25,245 bases of DNA from Pachysolen tannophilus NRRL Y-2460. Taxonomy: Eukaryota. The stretch's first letter is position 1. Each line of letters starts with the position of its first letter. The stretch is from assembly GCA_001661245.1 (NCBI GenBank), contig KV454013.1:625981-651225 (forward strand), in the 5' to 3' direction. Positions 1,223 through 22,669 of this stretch are shown here, in pieces. Made by a program: the position numbers and the translations under genes. Below the pieces are notes generated by a model. That model was not told the DNA's origin and searched no databases. It saw nothing but the letters and a program-made list of their open reading frames with translations.

Positions 1223-1868
1223 ATAAGAAAATTTAAACTATCTAAAATCTTAATTATTATACCTGCTGCGTATTATACGAAAATGTTTTTCGTCAGGGAA
1301 TCAAATGTTAAAATTAATAATAGTACAATGGATTCAAATCCAAATGTACACAACAAGCCACAGATCAATTATACTGATCCTAGCAAAACGAACAGAACTG
1401 GAAATAGTTTAATAAACAACAGCTCTATTTAAGTTAATAAAAACACTTTTTATGATGGTCAGATGTTGTATTGATAAAATTTTGTTAACTTTTTTGGTAT
1501 GCACGTAAAAAAAAAAAATGATAAAATGAAAAACGTTTTTTTATCTTATAATCTCTATCTATCTTTGGGCTAAATATAAATATAAATATAAATATAGATT
1601 TAAAACAGTGGGTTTTTCTTTTTTAATAATACTCTAAGGTTAAAAGTATGTGAAAAGAAAAAAAGATCTTACTTAAACTATCTTAATAGAACACTATAAA
1701 AATTTACCAAAAAACAGGTTCATAAGAAGAAATAGATCTTATCTCAATTCTTTTTGCCAACAAAAGGAAAAGGAAAAAGAAAACCAAAAAAAAAAAAAAA
1801 AAAAATTACACCTTTAGATAAAACATAAAGAGGGAAAGCTAAGGAGATTAAGCAAGCCATAACTTATT

Positions 1869-9048: not shown

Positions 9049-10317
9049 ATGCTGCAACAAACTGCTGATGATATAGAAGAATATAATGCATTGACATCAG
9101 TGTTGTAAGTTTTATACATAGGAGAAGGTTTAATTAACAATTGAAAACCCACTAACTTTTTATTAATTAGATCATCTTTCTATGAGTATGGGAACTGGGC
9201 AAGACGTACATTTTTAATTCCAAGAAGGCTTAAATGGGAATCTTTATCAAGGGAAGAGCACGAATTATTACCGTGGTTTGAAGATCATTTAAATTATTTG
9301 GAAAATTGTATTTTACAAAACGAAATATTTACCAAGAATCTAGCTACAACTATTGCTGGCAATTGGCAAGTTTCTACTGATCCAACCAGTTGGCATAATT
9401 GTAAGGTGAGTGATTTAGATAAAGTGAAATCTGTTTTAAACCAATTTGTGAGAGAATGGTCTGAAGAAGGAATTGAAGAAAGAGATGTTAGTTTTAATAA
9501 AATTTTAAAAGAGTGTGTACTGCTTTATCCTGATTTACAACAGAGACCAAATTTAAAAGTATTAGTTCCAGGTGCTGGGTTAGGAAGGTTAGTTTTTGAG
9601 TTTGTTAAATTGGGATTTCAAACTCAAGGGAACGAATTTTCATATCATATGCTTCTAGCATCGAATTTTATATTGAATCATTCGTATGTTGCACATCATC
9701 ATAACATATATCCACATATTCATAAATTTTCGAATCATGCCAAGCGGATCAATCAGATAAGACCAGTTTCTATACCAGATAGTGATCCGCATGATATTAA
9801 TAGAATGTCTAATGAAGGCAGTGGAATTCAATATGATGAATTAATGTCCATGTGTGCTGGATCTTTTATTGATCTATATGGACCATCTAATTTAAATATT
9901 TCTGAAACTTATTCAGGTGATAAGTCGGCACTGGATTTTAGGAAATTAAATGAAAATAATTTTCAAATAATTGCTACATGTTTTTTTCTTGATACAGCGA
10001 CTAATATCATTGATTATTTGAAAACAATTCATCACTCTTTAGACCCTCAAGGATATTGGATCAATTTTGGTCCCTTTTTATGGCATTTTGAAGATGATGA
10101 TTCTATAACCAATGAAGTAAACAAGGATAATCAAATGAAACCTACACCATTAAAAGGATTAGAATTGACAAGAGAAGACTTGATTGAATTGGTGAAGAAA
10201 TGTGGATTCAAGTTTTTAAAATATGAAAATAATATAGAAACAACTTATGCAAGTTCAAAAGATTCTTTAGGAGGGTATAGATATGAATGCGATTATTGGC
10301 TATGTCAGAAAGTATGA
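9049..10317 (+). CDS. Carnosine N-methyltransferase (N2227/CARNMT1; YNL092W ortholog), join(9049..9104,9171..10317), 400 aa
   Basis: Motifs QFVREWSEEG, VLVPGAGLGRL, QGNEFSYHM, TCFFLDTA and WINFGPFLWH. Splicing out 9105-9170 restores the N-terminus M-CTG-QQTADDIEEYNALTSVLSSFYEY… in frame with the track ORF, which otherwise starts at TTG. Confidence 0.9.
9105..9170 (+). other. Spliceosomal intron, 66 nt, phase 2
   Basis: GTAAGT 9105-9110, branch site CACTAAC 9150-9156, TAG 9168-9170. Removal gives TT+A = Leu and a continuous ORF. Confidence 0.9.
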
Positions 10318-10632: not shown

Positions 10633-11421
10633 CTAACATGCACAATTTGCATTATTTGCACCAGCATCGATTGGTGCGTTTAGATCAACTCTACCGTTAT
10701 TATTGTCGTCATTATCACCGCGGCCAGCAGACAAACCCAATCCACCATCATTATTCTTCTTTTTACCACTTGGGATTTTATTACCAATTGCCATAAATAC
10801 TTCATTAACGTTGTATGCGGTTTTAGCACTTGTTTCAAAAAATAACAAATTTTCTTCTTCAGCAAGATTTTGCCCTTCTTCAATACTAACTTTTCTATTA
10901 CTTTCTATTTCTTCTCCTTCTTCATTATTTTTACTAATTAAATCATATTTATTTCCACATAAAGCAATGATAATATCTTTTGAAGCTTGCTCATGTAATT
11001 CTTTAACCCAATGTCTCGCCTTAATAAAACTAGCCGGTTTAGTTATATCATATACAACCAAAGCCGCTTGTGCATTACGATAATACATTGGTGCAAGTGA
11101 AGCAAATCTTTCTTGACCAGCTGTATCCCATATTTCAAATTTTATAGTCTTATCACCAATTGTACATCTTTGAGTTAAAAACGCTGCTCCAATTGTAGGT
11201 TCTATTCAATAAAATTCAAAAATTTTAATGTTAGTAAAAATGAAGTTTTAAAAAAAAAAAAAAAAAAAAAATTATAAATTCACAAATTAAATATAAAACT
11301 TACCTTTATTTTCTTGAAAGTCATTACTGACAAATCGTAGAACAAGTGACGATTTTCCAACCGCAGCTTCTCCTAATAACACTAACTTCACAGCTGTTGT
11401 TGGTTTATTTGCAGAACTCAT
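10633..11421 (-). CDS. VPS21: Rab5-family GTPase Vps21/Ypt51 (pre-duplication VPS21/YPT53 ortholog), complement(join(10633..11201,11304..11421)), 228 aa
   Basis: Exon 1 encodes [39 protein letters not shown]. Exon 2 encodes [11 protein letters not shown]…[28 protein letters not shown]…GNKYD…ETSAK and ends in a CAC (CXC) prenylation motif. Confidence 0.95.
11202..11303 (-). other. Spliceosomal intron, 102 nt, phase 1
   Basis: On the minus strand: GTAAGT 11303-11298, internal poly-T, TACTAAC 11236-11230, TAG 11204-11202. Removal gives G+AA = Glu of the [11 protein letters not shown] effector loop. Confidence 0.95.
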
Positions 11422-11889
11422 TTAAGCTCAAGTTATATTTATCTATCGCACACACTATGAACCTAATAGTTACCGTAAATAAATAAAAAAAAAACCAAAA
11501 AAAAAAGGAAGATTATTATCACCCAAACTGACTAATTGTGATTTAACAGATATATTCAACCACCTATTCTTATTCTATTGAAACCCTATTTTATTTCGTT
11601 CTTTTTATCTATCTGTTCTAAGCTCAATATTTATCAGAGCAGTTCAAATTTTGAAATGAGAGAAAACCTTTTGTAACTTACGACACTACTGTTTTTCTGT
11701 TACTTTTGTTTTATTTGGTGAAGATTAGTTATTACCAACGACGACAACGACGACAAGATTATTCCAATTTTTTAGGATAAGATGAGTTATCTATTATATC
11801 TACAATGGTTTAATGGATATCATATAATACTGAATAAAAAGCAATAATATATATATATATATATTTAACAGAAAATGATGAATCTTGTA

Positions 11890-17573: not shown

Positions 17574-19712
17574 TTACTTGAGGTATTCCGAAACTTTCTT
17601 CAAACACTCATCCTTTATATCGTCGACGTCAAACCAGAATTTGAGGTCGACATCATTCGGTAAATCTTTTACAACCCTCATTATTCTTTCTCTCCATAAT
17701 TCTGCTTTTCTGTCATACTCGATTGTTGTCATATAGTTATCTTGATCGCTTGGCATGACAATAGAGTTATCAAGACTATTTGAAGTAATTTGGGAATAGC
17801 CCAAGGGATCACGATCACGAACTCTTCTTGGTGGCAACGTTGGAGATGAAGATACTGCTAAATGAGACGAGGAAGCAGAAAAAGGAGATGTTGGTCTCGA
17901 ACTGTCTAAAAATGTCGAGCGAGCCGGTAAGGGTGGTCTTGTTTCTTCGATGCTATATCCTTCAAAAGTTCTTGTAAGTTGTCTTGATATTTCAGTGGGC
18001 GAAGGTGAGCCATCAATATTAACAAAATGTTCGACGGAATCAAAGGTATTCTCATGTTCCGACTTACTCGTTTTGTTTCCCCTTAAAGAACTTGGTTTGT
18101 TTGGAATCATTGGGGAATATTTTTTGCTTTGTCGCGGAAGAGGAGCAGAACGGGGTAAAGGAGGAGGAGGTGGTGGTGGATGAGAAAATTCCAAAAGTGA
18201 AGTCAAAGGTGCGCTATGATTTTGGTTGATTGAACTTTTATGGTTATCTTTGATTTCTGAATCTAAATCAATTAAGTCTGAATGAATTTCACTTTTCGTT
18301 GACAGATCTGCTGATAGCGATGAAGCTTCTGTATTTTGAAATCGATCTTTATCTCTATTTGTTAATGCTTTCAAAATTTCATTGTAAACTTTATTATCAT
18401 CTAAATCAGAAAGCGAATGTGGAACAATTCTAATATAAATTGCCAATACTTGTTTTGGGTGATCTTTTGCTATGCTCAAATAAGTTTCCAAATCTTGTTC
18501 TCCTGAATCACCAATCATAATAAACTTTCTATTTGAAAAATCACTAACTATCTTGGAAATTGCTGGTCTCTTACGCTGAGATGACAGTTGCATTAAACTT
18601 GACAATAAATTACCTGTATATTGTTTCAAATGTATAGATCCAATAGGAAGACCAATAGTTTCTATAAATTGATAAATAGGATAATATAATTGCCATGGAG
18701 AATTTGAAACGTAATGAAAAGCACAATTTTTCTTTGCCAATGATGAATACCAAGATGCTATTTTCGGGACTTCACAATCTTTGAATTCTTTTACAAATAC
18801 GTTTCTAAATAAATCTCTCTTATCACCTACAACACCTGTAACTCTCACAGTATCATCAACATCACTAATTATAGATATTCCTTCATTTGGGACAATGTTA
18901 ACTTCGTTAAAACTAAATATACTTTCGTTTTCCACTGCTACAGCTTGGACAACTGAAGGTTCATAATCAGTGACAATTGAGCATTCAAAAGTACCATTGA
19001 CGTCTGCGTTAACATAATTCGAGATCAATTTATCTAAACCTAGTTTCTTTTCGGAACCTATTGTAATTTTTAACTTTGCATAAGATATAGATCTCGATAA
19101 AAATCCTGCTAATCTTTCTTTTAAAATATTTTCTGAATTAGACGCTACCGATGAAGCCGAAGCTGTTGAAACACTAGATGGGCTAGTTTCATCTTTCCTT
19201 AAAGAGGCATATGGTGATTTAGGCTCTGGTTCTGGTTCCAAACTACTTAATAAATCAGGATTATTTACCTTATCACTCAATTGTCCCTGTAATTCTTCGA
19301 CAGCTTCAGGTGGAGCTCCAGTGACTTTTGTCATTTGTCTTGCTAACGACAAAATTAACCTATTTTTCCTTGTCATTGCACCATTACAATAAATCCAACC
19401 TTTAACATCAGTGACATATTTTTTCTCTTTCAGGTTATATCGAGTGTAAGTATTATATAACGATAATTTAGAATTTGCTGGGATTCCTTCTAATTCATCT
19501 GAAATAGTGAATTTTTGAGTTGCAAAATTTGTAATTGACGATGCTATAGTGGGAATATATGTATCTTTAGTTGATTTGACCATACCCATCAATTTCGATC
19601 TCCTTGAAATATTACCGCTATTTTGATTGTTATTGCCACTAATGTTACCATTATCACCATATTGAGGAGGAGCGCTTTCAGGTCTAAAGTCATACTCAGA
19701 TTCTGGATGCAT
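17574..19712 (-). CDS. APP1: Phosphatidate phosphatase App1 (actin patch protein 1), from first ATG 19712; frame remains open upstream to 20012
   Basis: IISDVDDT (DxDxT catalytic motif), FHYVSNSPWQLY, GSIHLKQY, FIMIGDSGEQDLETY and AIYIR; proline-rich PxLPxR motifs. Confidence 0.92.
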   Translation of the reverse strand: MHPESEYDFRPESAPPQYGDNGNISGNNNQNSGNISRRSKLMGMVKSTKDTYIPTIASSITNFATQKFTISDELEGIPANSKLSLYNTYTRYNLKEKKYVTDVKGWIYCNGAMTRKNRLILSLARQMTKVTGAPPEAVEELQGQLSDKVNNPDLLSSLEPEPEPKSPYASLRKDETSPSSVSTASASSVASNSENILKERLAGFLSRSISYAKLKITIGSEKKLGLDKLISNYVNADVNGTFECSIVTDYEPSVVQAVAVENESIFSFNEVNIVPNEGISIISDVDDTVRVTGVVGDKRDLFRNVFVKEFKDCEVPKIASWYSSLAKKNCAFHYVSNSPWQLYYPIYQFIETIGLPIGSIHLKQYTGNLLSSLMQLSSQRKRPAISKIVSDFSNRKFIMIGDSGEQDLETYLSIAKDHPKQVLAIYIRIVPHSLSDLDDNKVYNEILKALTNRDKDRFQNTEASSLSADLSTKSEIHSDLIDLDSEIKDNHKSSINQNHSAPLTSLLEFSHPPPPPPPLPRSAPLPRQSKKYSPMIPNKPSSLRGNKTSKSEHENTFDSVEHFVNIDGSPSPTEISRQLTRTFEGYSIEETRPPLPARSTFLDSSRPTSPFSASSSHLAVSSSPTLPPRRVRDRDPLGYSQITSNSLDNSIVMPSDQDNYMTTIEYDRKAELWRERIMRVVKDLPNDVDLKFWFDVDDIKDECLKKVSEYLK

Positions 19713-20498
19713 CCTAGAGTACCTACCAGGCGTAAAATCGCTTACAAAACTAGAATTTCTCAATAAAAGATTTTTAAAAAGATATGATGAATCTCTCTTA
19801 TTCTTATTCAGGAAAAGCAACGATTGCAAAAAATTCCTCCTATAAATCAATAACTGACTATTCTTTTGCTTATTAAGATGATAATATTTTTGAATGAATA
19901 AATTTCGATGTCTAATAAAACTCGTATACTTGAAAAACACCTGTTTGGCGTCTTCAACTTTGGAAAGAGCCCTTGCTAATTTGATCAAAGTCAGTTGCCT
20001 CACTTTTGAAACCTATTATACAACACTCAAAATCCAAAAACGGAAATAATTATATAAAGCTTTCACAAAACTTCAAATACTTCCATTCACTTCTAGCAAA
20101 ACCAAAAAAAAAAAAAAAACACAATTCTATTCTTAAACAACTATATCAATAATAAATATCTATTATTACTATAACGCATGCCTACAAATTTAATTGCAGG
20201 TTTAACTGAGAGATGATCTATATCTCACGGGGCGGTCAAAAGTTCTCCTCCGAATGCACGACTAAAAAATGGGCGGGTTCGAAGACCACCAAGATCATTA
20301 AGATCATTACGATCATTACGATGACAATAGTTCTAGATGGAATGGTTTCCAGCCAGTATAGAGTGGCTACGTTTGCTATAATGTAGGTGTTAAAATGCTT
20401 TTGGTTCCCATTTTTTCATTAATGCCAGTTTGAAATGCCTAAATAAAAATATTACACACGTATATATATATTTTCCCATTTTTTTTTTTTTTTTTTTT

Positions 20499-22253
20499 TC
20501 AATAGCCCAAGTTGACCTTTATCGCATAAGTTACAGAGAAAGGTAATGTGATGAATAATATGGAGTACTGTGCAATCATGTAGAGTGATAGACAGTCCAT
20601 TTGGATACAGGTTTCTGCACTGGGGTCGGCATATGTTGCGGTGAGGTAAATTTGAATTGTAGCTGATGGTAACGACCATTCCAACAACATGATAAATGCA
20701 GCTAATTTATCATCACTGATCCAGCCTGCACTTTGTAATCTATGAACCCACAAGACACCTATTATAGGCATTATACATAGCCTGAAACTTGTGAGTACTA
20801 GCACACATTTCCAGAAACCAGGAGGAACAGAATTAATTTTCAATCTTGCACCTGTGGAACCTAATAGTAATAAACCAATGGGTACAGCAGCTTGACCTAT
20901 ATAGCTAAAATAATCCATAAGAAATGATAGAGGAGGTTCATCATCGGGGGCATTGGGCATCGAAACTGATGTTGAGACAAACAATGCTTTAACCCATGGG
21001 ATCATTGCTATAGTGACAGATAGAATTAATGCAATAGCACTTGGTTTTAAAAAATTTCTCAAGAAAAATACTAGCCATTGAAGTTTATATTTTTTAACAA
21101 ATGAAATATTTTTACCACTTTCTTCAACATCTTTTCTTGATACTTGTTCAGTTAAAATAGACATTGTAGTAGTTAATGCATGAATATCAGAATTATGACT
21201 ATGAAAAGATTGAACTCTTGAATACTCTCTAACCAAATCATGTGTAGTGTTAGTGCTATTGGCATTTGTGCTTAAAGTTGAAGCATAACTACTAACCGAT
21301 CTCGAACGGTTTCTTGTACTAGATATCGATGCTCTTGTATTGACCCTTCCTTCTGTATCTACTCCTGCTGCTGATCCTGGTTTTGATCCGGCCTTTGATC
21401 CAGCCCTAGACCTTGAGTTTAATATAGGCCCAAAATCATTTCCAGTCAGATTACTGGATCTATGAGACTGGAAAGGTCTTACTTGAAATGTTTCATTATC
21501 ATTTTCAAATTCTTCATCAGAACTATTTATTGATATGGTATCTGTAGGGGTGATAACATTTTCCTCATTACTATTGTTAATACCATCATTAATCAACACG
21601 TCATGGTTCGATGGAGAATGTGTTTCTTCAACTTCTTTTTCAGATTTCGGTCCTTCTTCACTCGGTCCATCTTCACTTGATCCATCATCACCTTCTGGTC
21701 TTACAGAATCCTCAATTTTAGAATCATCATCTTTATCTTTAAAATCATATTCAATTATCTGAAACAATCCTAAATTGAATTGTACAAAGATATAAGTTGC
21801 CAAACAAATACATATATATGAAACACCTTTATCTCCTTCATCTGTAGTGAATACAACCCCACCAGATAAAGTTTGAATATAAGCTATGGGCAAATCCGAG
21901 ACATTTGGCAAAGTATTTCCAGCAATATAACCACCTCTCCAATGTCTTGGTACAGGTAAAAAAAAACTAGTAAGTAAGGCAAAGAAAAACCCAGTACCAT
22001 ACATCACCACAGCATTTAAAACAATTATCCCAATAATCTTAATATCAGAATCGGAAATATTCGTTATAATCTCATCTAAAATCAAACATGGCATCAATAC
22101 CAAGAGAACAATATTTGACAACCCTCTAGTAATCTCCACAGACAAAAAATTCTTCTTCGCCAAGAAAAACCCAGTGAATATAATCAAATATACCTTAACT
22201 ATAGGTTTAACCGCAGAATATATTGCAGAACCTAACGAAATTTTATCAGACAT
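20499..22253 (-). CDS. ECM3: Auxin-efflux-carrier (Mem_trans) family transporter, ECM3/YNL095C ortholog
   Basis: ISLGSAIYSAVKPIVKVY, PNVSDLPIAYIQ, IPWVKALF, PNAPDDEPPLSFLMD and QMDCL; two transmembrane bundles flanking a long hydrophilic loop. Confidence 0.88.
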   Translation of the reverse strand: MSDKISLGSAIYSAVKPIVKVYLIIFTGFFLAKKNFLSVEITRGLSNIVLLVLMPCLILDEIITNISDSDIKIIGIIVLNAVVMYGTGFFFALLTSFFLPVPRHWRGGYIAGNTLPNVSDLPIAYIQTLSGGVVFTTDEGDKGVSYICICLATYIFVQFNLGLFQIIEYDFKDKDDDSKIEDSVRPEGDDGSSEDGPSEEGPKSEKEVEETHSPSNHDVLINDGINNSNEENVITPTDTISINSSDEEFENDNETFQVRPFQSHRSSNLTGNDFGPILNSRSRAGSKAGSKPGSAAGVDTEGRVNTRASISSTRNRSRSVSSYASTLSTNANSTNTTHDLVREYSRVQSFHSHNSDIHALTTTMSILTEQVSRKDVEESGKNISFVKKYKLQWLVFFLRNFLKPSAIALILSVTIAMIPWVKALFVSTSVSMPNAPDDEPPLSFLMDYFSYIGQAAVPIGLLLLGSTGARLKINSVPPGFWKCVLVLTSFRLCIMPIIGVLWVHRLQSAGWISDDKLAAFIMLLEWSLPSATIQIYLTATYADPSAETCIQMDCLSLYMIAQYSILFITLPFSVTYAIKVNLGY

Positions 22254-22669
22254 TACCTTTCAATCACTAAAAACATTTGATCAGAAATTAAAATCCTCTT
22301 TTGCAAAATAATTAAAACAACATCTAATGAAATATCAAAACCTAAGAAGAAAAAACAAAAAAACTACACTCTAAAACAAGCTTATTAAGCCTTCTTCCTT
22401 CTGACTCTAGCTTCTAGTATATTAATCGTAACCATTCCCCTTGTTTATATAACTAATTAAAACATCAACTTATCACCCAAAAAAAAATAATAGTAGTGTA
22501 CAATAGATTAGCTGGTGTTTACCGAAACACAGATAGAAAAGAAGCTCATTTCACAGAAATCTTTAAAGATACAATAATTAGAGGTTTTATAACGAGCCTG
22601 AGTTACAAGGTGACTAGGATTGACTATAGAAGGTTAGAAGGATAGGTAGATTGTTTTGAGGTTTCTAGG

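What the first reader, a model, noticed from the sequence alone, without database searches (positions are those of the whole stretch)
19713..20012. APP1 has a 97-codon AUG-free N-terminal extension from AAAA-GTG: candidate non-AUG mitochondrial isoform of a phosphatidate phosphatase
Seen: the frame stays open for 100 codons upstream of the first ATG (19712) to a TAG at 20015-20013, despite AT-rich sequence. It has no Met. GTG at 20003 is preceded by TCAAAA, and no branch-point motif is visible upstream. The 97-residue extension (VRQxTLIKLARALSK…FIRHRNLFIQKYYH…IYRRNFLQS…RYSR) has about 20 K/R versus 4 D/E and is rich in L/F/S, like a mitochondrial presequence, whereas the sequence after the ATG is acidic. 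Established: yeast GRS1 and ALA1 make mitochondrial isoforms from near-cognate starts in A-rich context. Inference: leaky scanning yields a cytosolic actin-patch App1 and a mitochondrial App1 that could act on mitochondrial phosphatidic acid. I know of no description of such an isoform.
Basis: partly seen in the sequence, partly recalled or inferred. Interest (0 to 1): 0.75.

Follow-up and report, generated by a model that had tools for sequence, protein, structure and literature searches.

The report
Non-AUG long isoform of yeast APP1
The lipid phosphatase gene APP1 of the yeast Pachysolen tannophilus carries an upstream, ATG-less, strongly basic 97-codon reading frame that most likely is translated from a GUG codon into a second, longer protein form, an arrangement that relatives in other fungi also show.

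Summary
The window is Pachysolen tannophilus; the APP1 frame is open for 100 codons above its first ATG (19712), bounded by TAA-TAG (20018-20013), with GTG at 20003 in an AAAA context. Openness (P about 1.6e-4), excess basic charge (P about 0.003) and absence of ATG in all three frames are not expected together by chance.

Comparison gives the main support. Many yeast APP1 orthologues have an AUG-started, Met-poor, basic extension of 52-101 residues ending at a conserved internal Met. In 12 of 15 Pezizomycotina loci the equivalent extension has no ATG and starts at a conserved CTG/TTG/GTG-GCT with A at -3. There it is under purifying selection (dN/dS 0.15).

The public gene model instead fuses APP1 to the upstream transporter gene through a 522-nt intron that lacks the splice signals of the two real introns in the window.

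Best reading (0.6): GUG-initiated long isoform plus leaky scanning to the AUG short isoform. Weak points: no RNA data or transcription start site, no close relative, intergenic-like codon usage, and only modest sequence similarity to orthologue extensions. Mitochondrial targeting is plausible but untested. This is a new member of a known kind.

The parts
20013..20018 (-). Two consecutive in-frame stop codons (TAA TAG) that close the APP1 frame at its 5' side, 3 codons above the GTG
20001..20003 (-). GTG, the candidate near-cognate start of the long isoform; context tcaaaaGTGagg (A at -3, -2 and -1). It aligns with Met1 of the closest orthologue, P0011
19713..20000 (-). The remaining 96 codons of the extension. 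Stop-free in frame, no ATG in any frame. K+R 20, D+E 4 (counted from the GTG). Residues 1-68 are predicted helical at pLDDT about 60-69, the rest disordered. Other in-frame near-cognates include CTG 19994, TTG 19988, ATC 19985, GTG 19940, ACG 19925 and ATT 19916
19710..19712 (-). First ATG (context ctaggATGc, A at -3); start of the short isoform. It corresponds to the conserved boundary Met of the orthologues
17574..19709 (-). Rest of the APP1 coding sequence (712 aa from the ATG, plus stop): acidic linker, conserved N-domain, catalytic domain, proline-rich C-terminal region
18429..18878 (-). APP1 catalytic domain (Pfam PF09949, residues 379-528 of the stop-to-stop frame, E 1.8e-50) with the invariant DxDDT motif
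20063..20086 (-). Nearest upstream ATG. It opens a 7-codon out-of-frame uORF ending in TGA, which is relevant only if transcripts start above it. It is also exon 1 of a rejected mini-intron idea (ATGGAA|GTATTT...TAG)
20050..20056 (-). TATATAA, 47 nt above the GTG. If this is the functional TATA box, transcription starts could fall near or below the GTG; this is unresolved
   Evidence: sequence only; inference
20013..20534 (-). The 522-nt 'intron' of the public gene model PACTADRAFT_2334, which joins the upstream transporter gene to the APP1 frame. It runs GTAACT...TAG with no ACTAAC, and contains the transporter gene's stop codon, an A21 tract and the whole intergenic region. Judged an annotation artefact
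20499..22253 (-). Upstream neighbour, a membrane transport protein gene (Pfam PF03547, E 1.1e-30) with its own stop codon at 20499-20501

Best explanation
The 97 codons between GTG 20003 and ATG 19712 are a real N-terminal extension of the phosphatidate phosphatase App1.

Proposed mechanism:
- A minority of scanning ribosomes initiate with Met-tRNAi at a near-cognate codon. The most likely one is GUG 20003, the only near-cognate here with A at -3 to -1, at the position where the closest orthologue has its AUG.
- These ribosomes make an 809-residue long form with a strongly basic, partly helical N-terminus.
- The remaining ribosomes scan on through 288 nt that hold no AUG in any frame, reach AUG 19712 (A at -3) and make the 712-residue short form.

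The two-start design is old in the family: AUG plus AUG in many budding yeasts, and CUG/UUG/GUG plus AUG in most Pezizomycotina sampled. In Pachysolen the first start is now GUG.

Shown: the frame statistics, the architecture shared with orthologues, and the conserved near-cognate start and purifying selection in Pezizomycotina.

Inferred: that Pachysolen mRNAs include the GUG, that it is used, and what the extension does. My guess for its role is delivery of the long form to another membrane. Mitochondria are the leading candidate (about 0.4), given the acid-free, Arg/Lys-rich, amphipathic N-termini of the long forms.
For: In the window:
- The frame is open for 100 codons at about 31% G+C (P 1.6e-4); the other five frames have 5-12 stops.
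- Basic excess beyond what the composition gives (P 0.0024 for K+R, 0.0036 for net charge).
- No ATG in any frame for 371 nt above ATG 19712. 0 of 152 coding windows of 300 nt are ATG-free.
- GTG context tcaaaaGTG. TAA-TAG lies 3 codons above it.

Yeast orthologues:
- 24 proteins have 60 or more residues before the conserved N-domain. Several are redundant, and 3 (P0046, P0060, P0070) were mis-placed by the anchor pattern.
- In the others the extension is 52-161 residues (52-101 in all but P0089), with K+R 12-31 and D+E 1-8, and ends at a Met followed by an acidic or neutral linker.
- Between Met1 and that Met all 24 rows hold 5 Met in 1885 residues, against 33 expected.
- Pachysolen from the GTG matches: 97 residues, K+R 20, D+E 4, linker 34.
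- Gene callers start members of one 90% cluster at either Met (665/666 versus 596/597 aa).

Similarity to the closest orthologue (P0011, the top hit of a full HMMER scan):
- Smith-Waterman score 52, reached by 8 of 5000 (extension shuffled) or 19 of 5000 (P0011 shuffled) controls. The alignment starts at GTG opposite Met1.
- phmmer ranks it first of 69 (E 0.035), extension residues 6-64 opposite P0011 residues 3-62.

Pezizomycotina (15 metagenome loci with the extension):
- The first codon is ATG in 3, CTG in 10, TTG in 1 and GTG in 1. All 12 non-ATG starts are followed by GCT and have A at -3.
- An in-frame stop lies only 3-5 codons upstream in 3 loci.
- ATG in any frame between the two starts: 12 observed against about 43 expected over 13 loci.
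- dN/dS of the ATG-less extension is 0.15 (L007/L008, 102 codons, dS 0.42), against 0.17 downstream.

Precedent in print:
- GTG gives about 20% of ATG activity in the ALA1 context and is among the best non-ATG codons in the GRS1 context (abstract of PMC2909995).
- AUG and near-cognate starts have replaced each other repeatedly in fungi (passages of PMC7049704).
- UUG, and a predicted GUG, start ISC1 in Kluyveromyces (passages of the preprint 10.1101/2022.03.25.485750).
Against: - No RNA evidence could be obtained and the transcription start is unknown. A TATATAA 47 nt above the GTG leaves room for starts at or below it (inference).
- Codon-usage log-odds of the extension is 0.001. That is below all 90 coding windows of the neighbouring genes (minimum 0.12) and inside the intergenic range (21 of 146 intergenic windows score as high). 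With stops ignored, frame 0 is no better than frame 2.
- ATG-free stretches are not unusual above genes here: 17 of 204 intergenic 300-nt windows have none, and three other entries in the list have ATG-free leaders of 340-498 nt, one of them computed from a start coordinate 1 nt off.
- A profile of 13 yeast extensions does not score the Pachysolen extension above shuffles (1655 of 5000 as high; 2143 of 5000 without P0011).
- BLASTP against three long forms is not significant.
- 11 of 13 further Smith-Waterman tests are not significant.
- The conserved yeast motif (Y-K-D-Y-K-A-L-K type) is not recognisable in Pachysolen.
- A Pezizomycotina extension profile does not detect the yeast extensions either (best 18 of 1000). 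Homology of the extensions between subphyla therefore rests on architecture alone.
- No genome of a close relative was available, so there is no dN/dS for Pachysolen itself.
- With roughly 6000 genes (recalled), about one 100-codon open leader is expected by chance genome-wide from openness alone.
Confidence: 0.6

Rival explanations
1. Relic. The ancestor had an AUG-started long form. In the Pachysolen lineage the start recently mutated (ATG to GTG), the long form is no longer made in meaningful amounts, and the frame has simply not yet decayed. Only the 712-residue form matters.
For: - Codon usage is intergenic-like.
- The family motif is not recognisable and the profile tests are negative.
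- One transition explains the GTG at the position of the orthologue's Met1.
- ATG avoidance is also expected for a plain long 5' leader.
Against: - 51 of 873 possible single-base changes would create an in-frame stop. The frame would stay open with probability 0.18 after 0.1, and 0.03 after 0.2, neutral substitutions per site. The loss would therefore have to be very recent on a long, isolated branch: the closest protein found is only about 35-43% identical.
- GTG in this context is itself a working initiator in S. cerevisiae reporters (abstract of PMC2909995).
- Relatives in Pezizomycotina keep a non-AUG start stably under selection.
- The basic excess is intact.
Confidence: 0.18
2. Spliced gene. 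An upstream exon with an AUG is joined to the frame at or near 20012. This is either the public fused model (transporter gene exon ending at 20535, intron 20534-20013) or a mini-exon ATGGAA (20086-20081) with a 68-nt intron.
For: - The public model PACTADRAFT_2334 (1385 aa, Pfam PF03547 plus PF09949) does the first.
- Both proposals are GT...AG and in frame.
- Two other genes of the window do have an ATG-bearing first exon and a long ATG-less open frame behind an intron, of 168 and 39 codons.
Against: - Both real introns in the window read GTAAGT...ACTAAC...YAG and are 66 and 102 nt long. On the APP1 strand there is no GTAAGT/GTATGT and no ACTAAC anywhere in 19650-20700.
- The proposed 5' sites are GTAACT and GTATTT.
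- The 522-nt intron would contain the transporter gene's own stop codon, an A21 tract and UAUAUA-type 3'-end signals. It would also cut the transporter's last 11 residues.
- Orthologues start their extension within a few residues of the position of the GTG.
Confidence: 0.05
3. Chance. The region is an ordinary long 5' leader or promoter that happens to be open in the APP1 frame; nothing is translated there.
For: - From openness alone, about one such leader is expected per yeast genome (gene number recalled).
- Codon usage is not coding-like.
- ATG-free leaders are common here.
Against: - Openness and basic excess together are about 1e-6 under composition shuffles.
- They occur in the one gene whose orthologues carry a basic, Met-poor extension of the same length before a conserved Met.
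- There is positional similarity to P0011.
Confidence: 0.07

Closest known systems
S. cerevisiae ALA1 (ACG) and GRS1 (UUG): mitochondrial isoforms from upstream near-cognate codons
   Same: An in-frame, AUG-free upstream extension, a near-cognate start in an A-rich context, leaky scanning to the AUG of the cytosolic form, and a basic extension. The codon and context data come from the abstract of PMC2909995.
   Different: Those extensions are short presequences of enzymes needed in both compartments, and they are shown by experiment. Here the extension is 97 residues, the protein is a lipid phosphatase with no known mitochondrial role, and nothing has been shown at the RNA or protein level.
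S. cerevisiae App1 (actin-patch phosphatidate phosphatase)
   Same: The same family: Pfam PF09949 (E 1.8e-50), the DxDDT motif, and a proline-rich C-terminal region. By recall the neighbourhood also matches: NST1, the CARME gene, a Rab5-type GTPase and the transporter gene lie nearby.
   Different: By recall the annotated S. cerevisiae protein is of the short type, with no basic extension. I could not inspect its upstream DNA here.
Neurospora crassa cpc-1: conserved near-cognate-initiated N-terminal extensions in Pezizomycotina (PMC5487733)
   Same: A conserved CUG/AUU/ACG with A at -3 and G at +4, a stop-free extension under purifying selection, and no upstream in-frame AUG (passages read). 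The Pezizomycotina APP1 loci show the same signature.
   Different: A different gene with a different logic (bypass of an inhibitory uORF). That paper does not mention APP1.
Kluyveromyces ISC1: UUG start in K. marxianus, predicted GUG in K. lactis (preprint 10.1101/2022.03.25.485750)
   Same: A budding-yeast lipid enzyme whose start codon is a near-cognate that differs between species, one of them GUG (passages read).
   Different: There the non-AUG start is reported as the only start. Here a downstream AUG isoform is expected as well.
PIF1 and fungal aminoacyl-tRNA synthetases: two in-frame AUGs flanking a targeting signal, resolved by leaky scanning (PMC11229318, search listing only; PMC7049704, passages)
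   Same: The yeast APP1 long forms look like this design: Met1, a Met-poor basic stretch, then a second conserved Met. PMC7049704 states that weak AUGs and near-cognates have replaced each other many times.
   Different: No DNA of the yeast orthologues was available, so out-of-frame AUGs and the Met1 contexts could not be checked.

Membership tests
APP1-type phosphatidate phosphatase (Pfam PF09949) | Match to the catalytic-domain profile above its curated cut-off | tested here: met
   171.3 bits against a cut-off of 27.1, E 1.8e-50, residues 379-528, profile positions 1-153 of 154
APP1-type phosphatidate phosphatase (Pfam PF09949) | DxDxT-type catalytic motif | tested here: met
   D384, D386, D387 and T388 are invariant in 8 of 8 aligned proteins and in 36 of 36 (numbered from the GTG)
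Near-cognate-initiated N-terminal extension with leaky scanning (ALA1/GRS1 kind) | In-frame, stop-free extension above the annotated AUG, longer than chance allows | tested here: met
   100 codons, P 1.6e-4
Near-cognate-initiated N-terminal extension with leaky scanning (ALA1/GRS1 kind) | A near-cognate codon in a favourable context at the head of the extension | tested here: met
   tcaaaaGTGagg at 20003. It is the only in-frame near-cognate with A at -3, -2 and -1.
Near-cognate-initiated N-terminal extension with leaky scanning (ALA1/GRS1 kind) | No AUG in any frame between the two starts | tested here: met
   0 ATG in 288 nt. The same holds for 17 of 204 intergenic windows, so on its own this is weak.
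Near-cognate-initiated N-terminal extension with leaky scanning (ALA1/GRS1 kind) | The mRNA 5' end lies above the near-cognate codon | not testable with these tools
   No RNA run was listed for this DNA
Near-cognate-initiated N-terminal extension with leaky scanning (ALA1/GRS1 kind) | Initiating ribosomes or peptides on the extension | not testable with these tools
   No ribosome profiling or proteome data could be reached
Near-cognate-initiated N-terminal extension with leaky scanning (ALA1/GRS1 kind) | Extension conserved as coding sequence in relatives | tested here: inconclusive
   Met in distant relatives: dN/dS 0.15 in Pezizomycotina and a shared architecture in yeasts. For Pachysolen itself there is only modest similarity to P0011 (8 of 5000), the profile tests are negative, and no close relative was found.
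Near-cognate-initiated N-terminal extension with leaky scanning (ALA1/GRS1 kind) | The extension is a mitochondrial targeting signal | tested here: inconclusive
   The first 16 residues are acid-free with net charge +4; the hydrophobic moment is 0.73. Acidic residues appear from residue 17, and the extension is 97 residues long. In orthologue long forms D+E is 0 in the first 30 residues in 11 of 13 yeast and 12 of 13 Pezizomycotina sequences. No trained predictor was available.
Spliced two-exon gene (public fused model) | Splice signals like those of the organism's real introns (GTAAGT, ACTAAC, YAG) | tested here: not met
   2 of 2 real introns in the window have all three signals. Neither the 5' site nor the branch site occurs in 19650-20700 on this strand.

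The most novel reading that the evidence does not exclude
App1 has an ancient second isoform across the Ascomycota: a basic extension of about 100 residues, started at a weak AUG or a conserved near-cognate codon (CUG in most Pezizomycotina sampled, GUG in Pachysolen). This extension sends part of the cell's Mg-dependent phosphatidate phosphatase to mitochondria, where it would turn phosphatidate into diacylglycerol. The S. cerevisiae-centred picture of App1 as a purely cortical actin-patch enzyme has no place for such an activity.
Probability: 0.3. Interest if true: 0.8.

Novelty: new member of a known kind. Interest (0 to 1): 0.55.

Why it matters
- **Annotation.** Gene callers currently handle this locus in three wrong or partial ways: they fuse it to the neighbouring gene, start at the internal Met, or, in Pezizomycotina, would miss the ATG-less part. 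A recognised non-AUG start would correct the gene model in Pachysolen and in many filamentous fungi.
- **Biology.** App1 is the least understood of the four yeast phosphatidate phosphatases. A conserved second isoform with a targeting-type N-terminus points to a second site of action. This can be tested directly by tagging and start-codon mutants in any tractable species that has the long form.
- **Evolution.** The family would be a clear natural series in which AUG, CUG, UUG and GUG replace each other at the same start position. That is useful for studying how start-codon strength tunes isoform ratios.

Tried and rejected
- **RNA evidence.** The one run search listed 4 holders, none on record as RNA ('no RNA holder listed'). 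The 4 runs are DNA contigs of one sample and could only confirm the letters.
- **Whole genome.** None is held for this window, so there is no genome-wide background for open leaders and no wider intron consensus.
- **Pairwise BLASTP** of the extension against P0004, P0005 and P0006: E 4.9, no alignment, and E 1.3.
- **An apparent match upstream of the TAG** to one orthologue turned out to be in another frame and was dropped.
- **Profile of 13 yeast extensions against the Pachysolen extension:** not above shuffles.
- **Profile of 13 Pezizomycotina extensions against 15 yeast extensions:** not significant (best 18 of 1000). The same profile was not run against the Pachysolen extension, so that comparison stays open.
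- **Further word-indexed homologue searches** added only P0088 and P0089 or nothing. No CUG-Ala-clade relative was identified, and most homologues are unnamed.
- **ESM Atlas on the extension:** no usable hit.
- **Earlier findings of this scan:** nothing by place, by sequence or by words.
- **Pfam on the extension alone:** no family at E up to 1.
- **Pfam on the upstream gene** stops at residue 541 of 584, so it does not show whether the fused model cuts a conserved C-terminus.
- **Literature.** The supplement of PMC6582344, which lists the S. cerevisiae candidates, could not be read, so whether S. cerevisiae APP1 is on that list is unknown; its main text does not mention APP1. PMC5487733, PMC7049704 and the K. 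marxianus preprint do not mention APP1 or phosphatidate.
- **Mini-intron ATGGAA|GTATTT...TAG (68 nt):** in frame, but the 5' site is poor and there is no branch site; rejected.
- **Structure prediction** (36-row alignment): mean pLDDT 72. The extension is helical over residues 2-14 and 19-68 at pLDDT about 60-69 and disordered from 65 to 131. This gives no information on targeting.
Full report
**What the locus is**

The window comes from Pachysolen tannophilus NRRL Y-2460. The stop-to-stop frame 17574-20012 (minus strand, 812 codons) is 99% identical to part of the public protein PACTADRAFT_2334; the differences are at CTG codons, which this yeast reads as Ala. It carries the APP1 catalytic domain (PF09949, E 1.8e-50, residues 379-528) with the invariant DxDDT motif.

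The neighbours are a Rho-type GTPase, NST1, a YVC1-like channel, a carnosine-N-methyltransferase-family gene, a Rab5-type GTPase, a PP2C, a Tma46-like gene, TDP1, then APP1, a Mem_trans transporter and an F-BAR/SH3 gene.

**Check of the observation**

- first ATG at 19712;
- 100 ATG-less codons above it;
- TAG at 20015-20013, itself preceded by TAA;
- GTG at 20003 after TCAAAA.

From the GTG the extension has K+R 20 and D+E 4, and the sequence after the ATG is acidic.

The features exceed chance:
- Only 31 of 200,000 shuffles stay open, while the other five frames hold 5-12 stops.
- The basic excess goes beyond what an AT-rich sequence gives (K+R P 0.0024, net charge P 0.0036).
- There is no ATG in any frame for 371 nt above ATG 19712. 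No 300-nt coding window of the neighbouring genes is ATG-free (0 of 152).

Contigs of four DNA runs of one sample agree with the window letter for letter over 19400-20460.

**Points against a coding reading, from the window alone**

- The codon-usage log-odds of the extension (0.001) is below all 90 coding windows of the neighbouring genes (minimum 0.12) and within the intergenic spread (21 of 146 as high). With stops ignored, frame 0 is no better than frame 2.
- ATG-free stretches are common above genes here: 17 of 204 intergenic windows, and three other entries in the list have leaders of 340-498 nt, one of them computed from a start coordinate 1 nt off.

So the region looks like a leader in its ATG content and codon usage, and like coding sequence only in being open and basic. 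That mix is what an AUG-free dual-use leader should look like. It is also what a recently disabled extension would look like.

**The public model and the intron question**

PACTADRAFT_2334 (1385 aa) joins the upstream transporter gene to APP1 at ...LPFS|VSKVR. This implies an intron from 20534 to 20013.

The window holds two genes that really have an ATG-bearing first exon followed by a long ATG-less frame. Their introns, 9105-9170 (+) and 11202-11303 (-), both read GTAAGT...ACTAAC...YAG. On the APP1 strand there is no GTAAGT/GTATGT and no ACTAAC anywhere in 19650-20700. The proposed intron starts GTAACT, and it encloses the transporter's stop codon, an A21 tract and the whole intergenic region.

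A second idea, ATGGAA|GTATTT...TAG (68 nt, in frame), fails the same test. I rate splicing at 0.05.

**Yeast orthologues**

A full HMMER scan of 1.84 billion representatives with the first 260 residues gave 66 hits. Most alignments begin at query residues 107-197, where the conserved N-domain begins.

Many orthologues have a long N-terminus before that domain. Of 56 proteins with a recognisable anchor, 24 have 60 or more residues before it. Several of these are redundant, and in three (P0046, P0060, P0070) the anchor pattern was mis-placed.

In the others the extension is 52-161 residues long (52-101 in all but P0089), with K+R 12-31 and D+E 1-8. It ends at a Met that follows a basic cluster and precedes an acidic or neutral linker of 14-53 residues. 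Between Met1 and that Met all 24 rows hold 5 Met in 1885 residues, against 33 expected.

Short-form predictions start at that very Met, and within one 90% cluster gene callers chose either start. Pachysolen counted from the GTG fits the pattern: 97 residues, K+R 20, D+E 4, boundary Met after ..RYSR, linker 34.

**Sequence similarity of the extension**

It is modest. The closest orthologue overall, P0011, aligns with the extension from its Met1 opposite the GTG codon:
- Smith-Waterman score 52, reached by 8 of 5000 or 19 of 5000 shuffles, depending on which partner is shuffled.
- phmmer ranks it first of 69, with E 0.035.
- MAFFT places the two N-termini together.

P0004 gives 7 of 1000; the other 11 long forms are not significant. 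BLASTP is not significant. A profile of 13 yeast extensions does not detect the Pachysolen extension (1655 of 5000 shuffles as high).

**Pezizomycotina**

A metagenome scan returned 80 loci. 15 of them are from filamentous ascomycetes (G+C 0.48-0.57) and encode a conserved basic extension, of the type ..LLRYLFP...RIYRFIV.., followed by an internal Met.

The first codon of the conserved part is ATG in 3, CTG in 10, TTG in 1 and GTG in 1. All 12 non-ATG codons are followed by GCT (G at +4) and have A at -3, and there is no in-frame ATG upstream. In three loci an in-frame stop lies only 3-5 codons above the CTG.

ATGs in any frame between the two starts number 12, against about 43 expected over 13 loci, some of which are related.

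The ATG-less extension evolves as coding sequence. L007 against L008 gives dN/dS 0.15 over 102 codons at dS 0.42, the same as the downstream part (0.17). Five further pairs give 0.08-0.23, and three more divergent pairs 0.30-0.41.

This is the classic signature of a conserved near-cognate start. It shows that this gene family makes its long form without an AUG in a large group of fungi.

The Pezizomycotina and yeast extensions cannot be shown to be homologous by a profile test. The link between them is shared architecture and position.

**Mechanism proposed for Pachysolen**

GUG 20003 is the only in-frame near-cognate with A at -3, -2 and -1. It sits 3 codons below a double stop and opposite the Met1 of the closest orthologue.

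In S. cerevisiae reporters GTG gives about 20% of ATG activity in the ALA1 context and is among the best non-ATG codons in the GRS1 context (abstract of PMC2909995). Swaps between weak AUGs and near-cognates are reported as frequent in fungi (passages of PMC7049704). A UUG, and a predicted GUG, start is described for ISC1 in Kluyveromyces (passages of the preprint).

I therefore propose a GUG-started 809-residue form and, by leaky scanning through an AUG-free leader, an AUG-started 712-residue form.

The weakest link is the unknown transcription start. A TATATAA lies 47 nt above the GTG. If most starts fall below 20003, another in-frame near-cognate (TTG 19988, ATC 19985, GTG 19940, ACG 19925, ATT 19916) would have to serve, and all of these are in poorer contexts.

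**The relic alternative**

51 of 873 single-base changes would close the frame. After 0.1 neutral substitutions per site it would stay open with probability 0.18, and after 0.2 with probability 0.03. A dead extension would therefore have to be very young, on a branch whose nearest known protein is only about 35-43% identical. I give this 0.18, and pure chance 0.07.

**What the extension does**

- The first 16 residues from the GTG are acid-free with net charge +4 and strongly amphipathic (moment 0.73). Acidic residues appear from position 17.
- In orthologue long forms the first 30 residues have no acidic residue in 11 of 13 yeast and 12 of 13 Pezizomycotina sequences, with K+R 3-10. Short forms start with acidic residues within the first 2-18 positions. 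This is presequence-like.
- On the other hand the extension is long, stays basic throughout, and in Pezizomycotina keeps specific motifs. That would also suit a membrane-binding or regulatory segment.
- AlphaFold2 predicts helices over residues 2-14 and 19-68 at pLDDT about 60-69, and disorder from 65 to 131.

I hold mitochondrial targeting at about 0.4. No trained predictor was available.

**Novelty**

Four full-text searches and look-ups in five papers found no mention of an APP1 extension, a non-AUG start or a mitochondrial form. The candidate list of PMC6582344 could not be read.

The mechanism is a known kind. APP1 would be a new member, with an unusually clear comparative series of AUG, CUG, UUG and GUG at one start position.

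**Limits**

- No RNA data.
- No genome of the organism or of a close relative.
- No DNA of the yeast orthologues.
- One planned test, the Pezizomycotina profile against the Pachysolen extension, was not run.

**Verdict**

The non-AUG extension is the best-supported reading (0.6). The mitochondrial role remains open. Interest 0.55.

Noticed in passing
window 20013-20534 (-) and 20499-22253 (-): The public gene model PACTADRAFT_2334 (1385 aa) fuses the Mem_trans transporter gene to APP1 through a 522-nt intron with non-consensus signals. It drops the transporter's last 11 residues and its stop codon.
   Followed up: yes
loci L001, L002, L004-L016 (metagenome contigs of filamentous ascomycetes): APP1 orthologues with a conserved basic extension. 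In 12 of 15 loci it has no ATG and begins at A-N-N-CTG/TTG/GTG-GCT. dN/dS is 0.15 in the ATG-less part for the closest pair. Gene callers that require ATG would mis-annotate these.
   Followed up: yes
window 9049-10317 (+) and 10633-11422 (-): Two genes with short first exons and canonical introns (GTAAGT...ACTAAC...YAG) at 9105-9170 and 11202-11303. One is a carnosine-N-methyltransferase-family gene and the other a Rab5-type GTPase. They explain the other two long ATG-less open frames in the window (168 and 39 codons).
   Followed up: partly
window 20292-20319 (-): Three tandem copies of a 9-nt unit (GTAATGATC, GTAATGATC, TTAATGATC) in the region upstream of APP1, each holding an ATG. They could be a repeated factor-binding site.
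   Followed up: no
window 20479-20499 and 20104-20119 (-): An A21 tract starts at the last base of the transporter's stop codon, and a T16 tract lies about 100 nt above the GTG. These homopolymer tracts broke the short-read contigs of two or three of the four runs at these places.
   Followed up: no
window 1223-1720 (-) and 22330-22669 (+): Two other genes, the Rho-type GTPase and the F-BAR/SH3 gene, also have unusually long ATG-free stretches above their start codons (498 and 340 nt).
   Followed up: no
proteins P0005, P0079, P0082-P0087 (one 90% cluster): Within one cluster of near-identical yeast APP1 proteins, automatic gene calls start either at Met1 of the extension (665/666 aa) or at the internal Met (596/597 aa).
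   Followed up: partly
window 1-25245: NST1, the CARME gene, the Rab5-type GTPase, APP1 and the Mem_trans gene lie in the same neighbourhood. By recall this matches the YNL091W-YNL095C block of S. cerevisiae. The S. cerevisiae side was not checked here.
   Followed up: no
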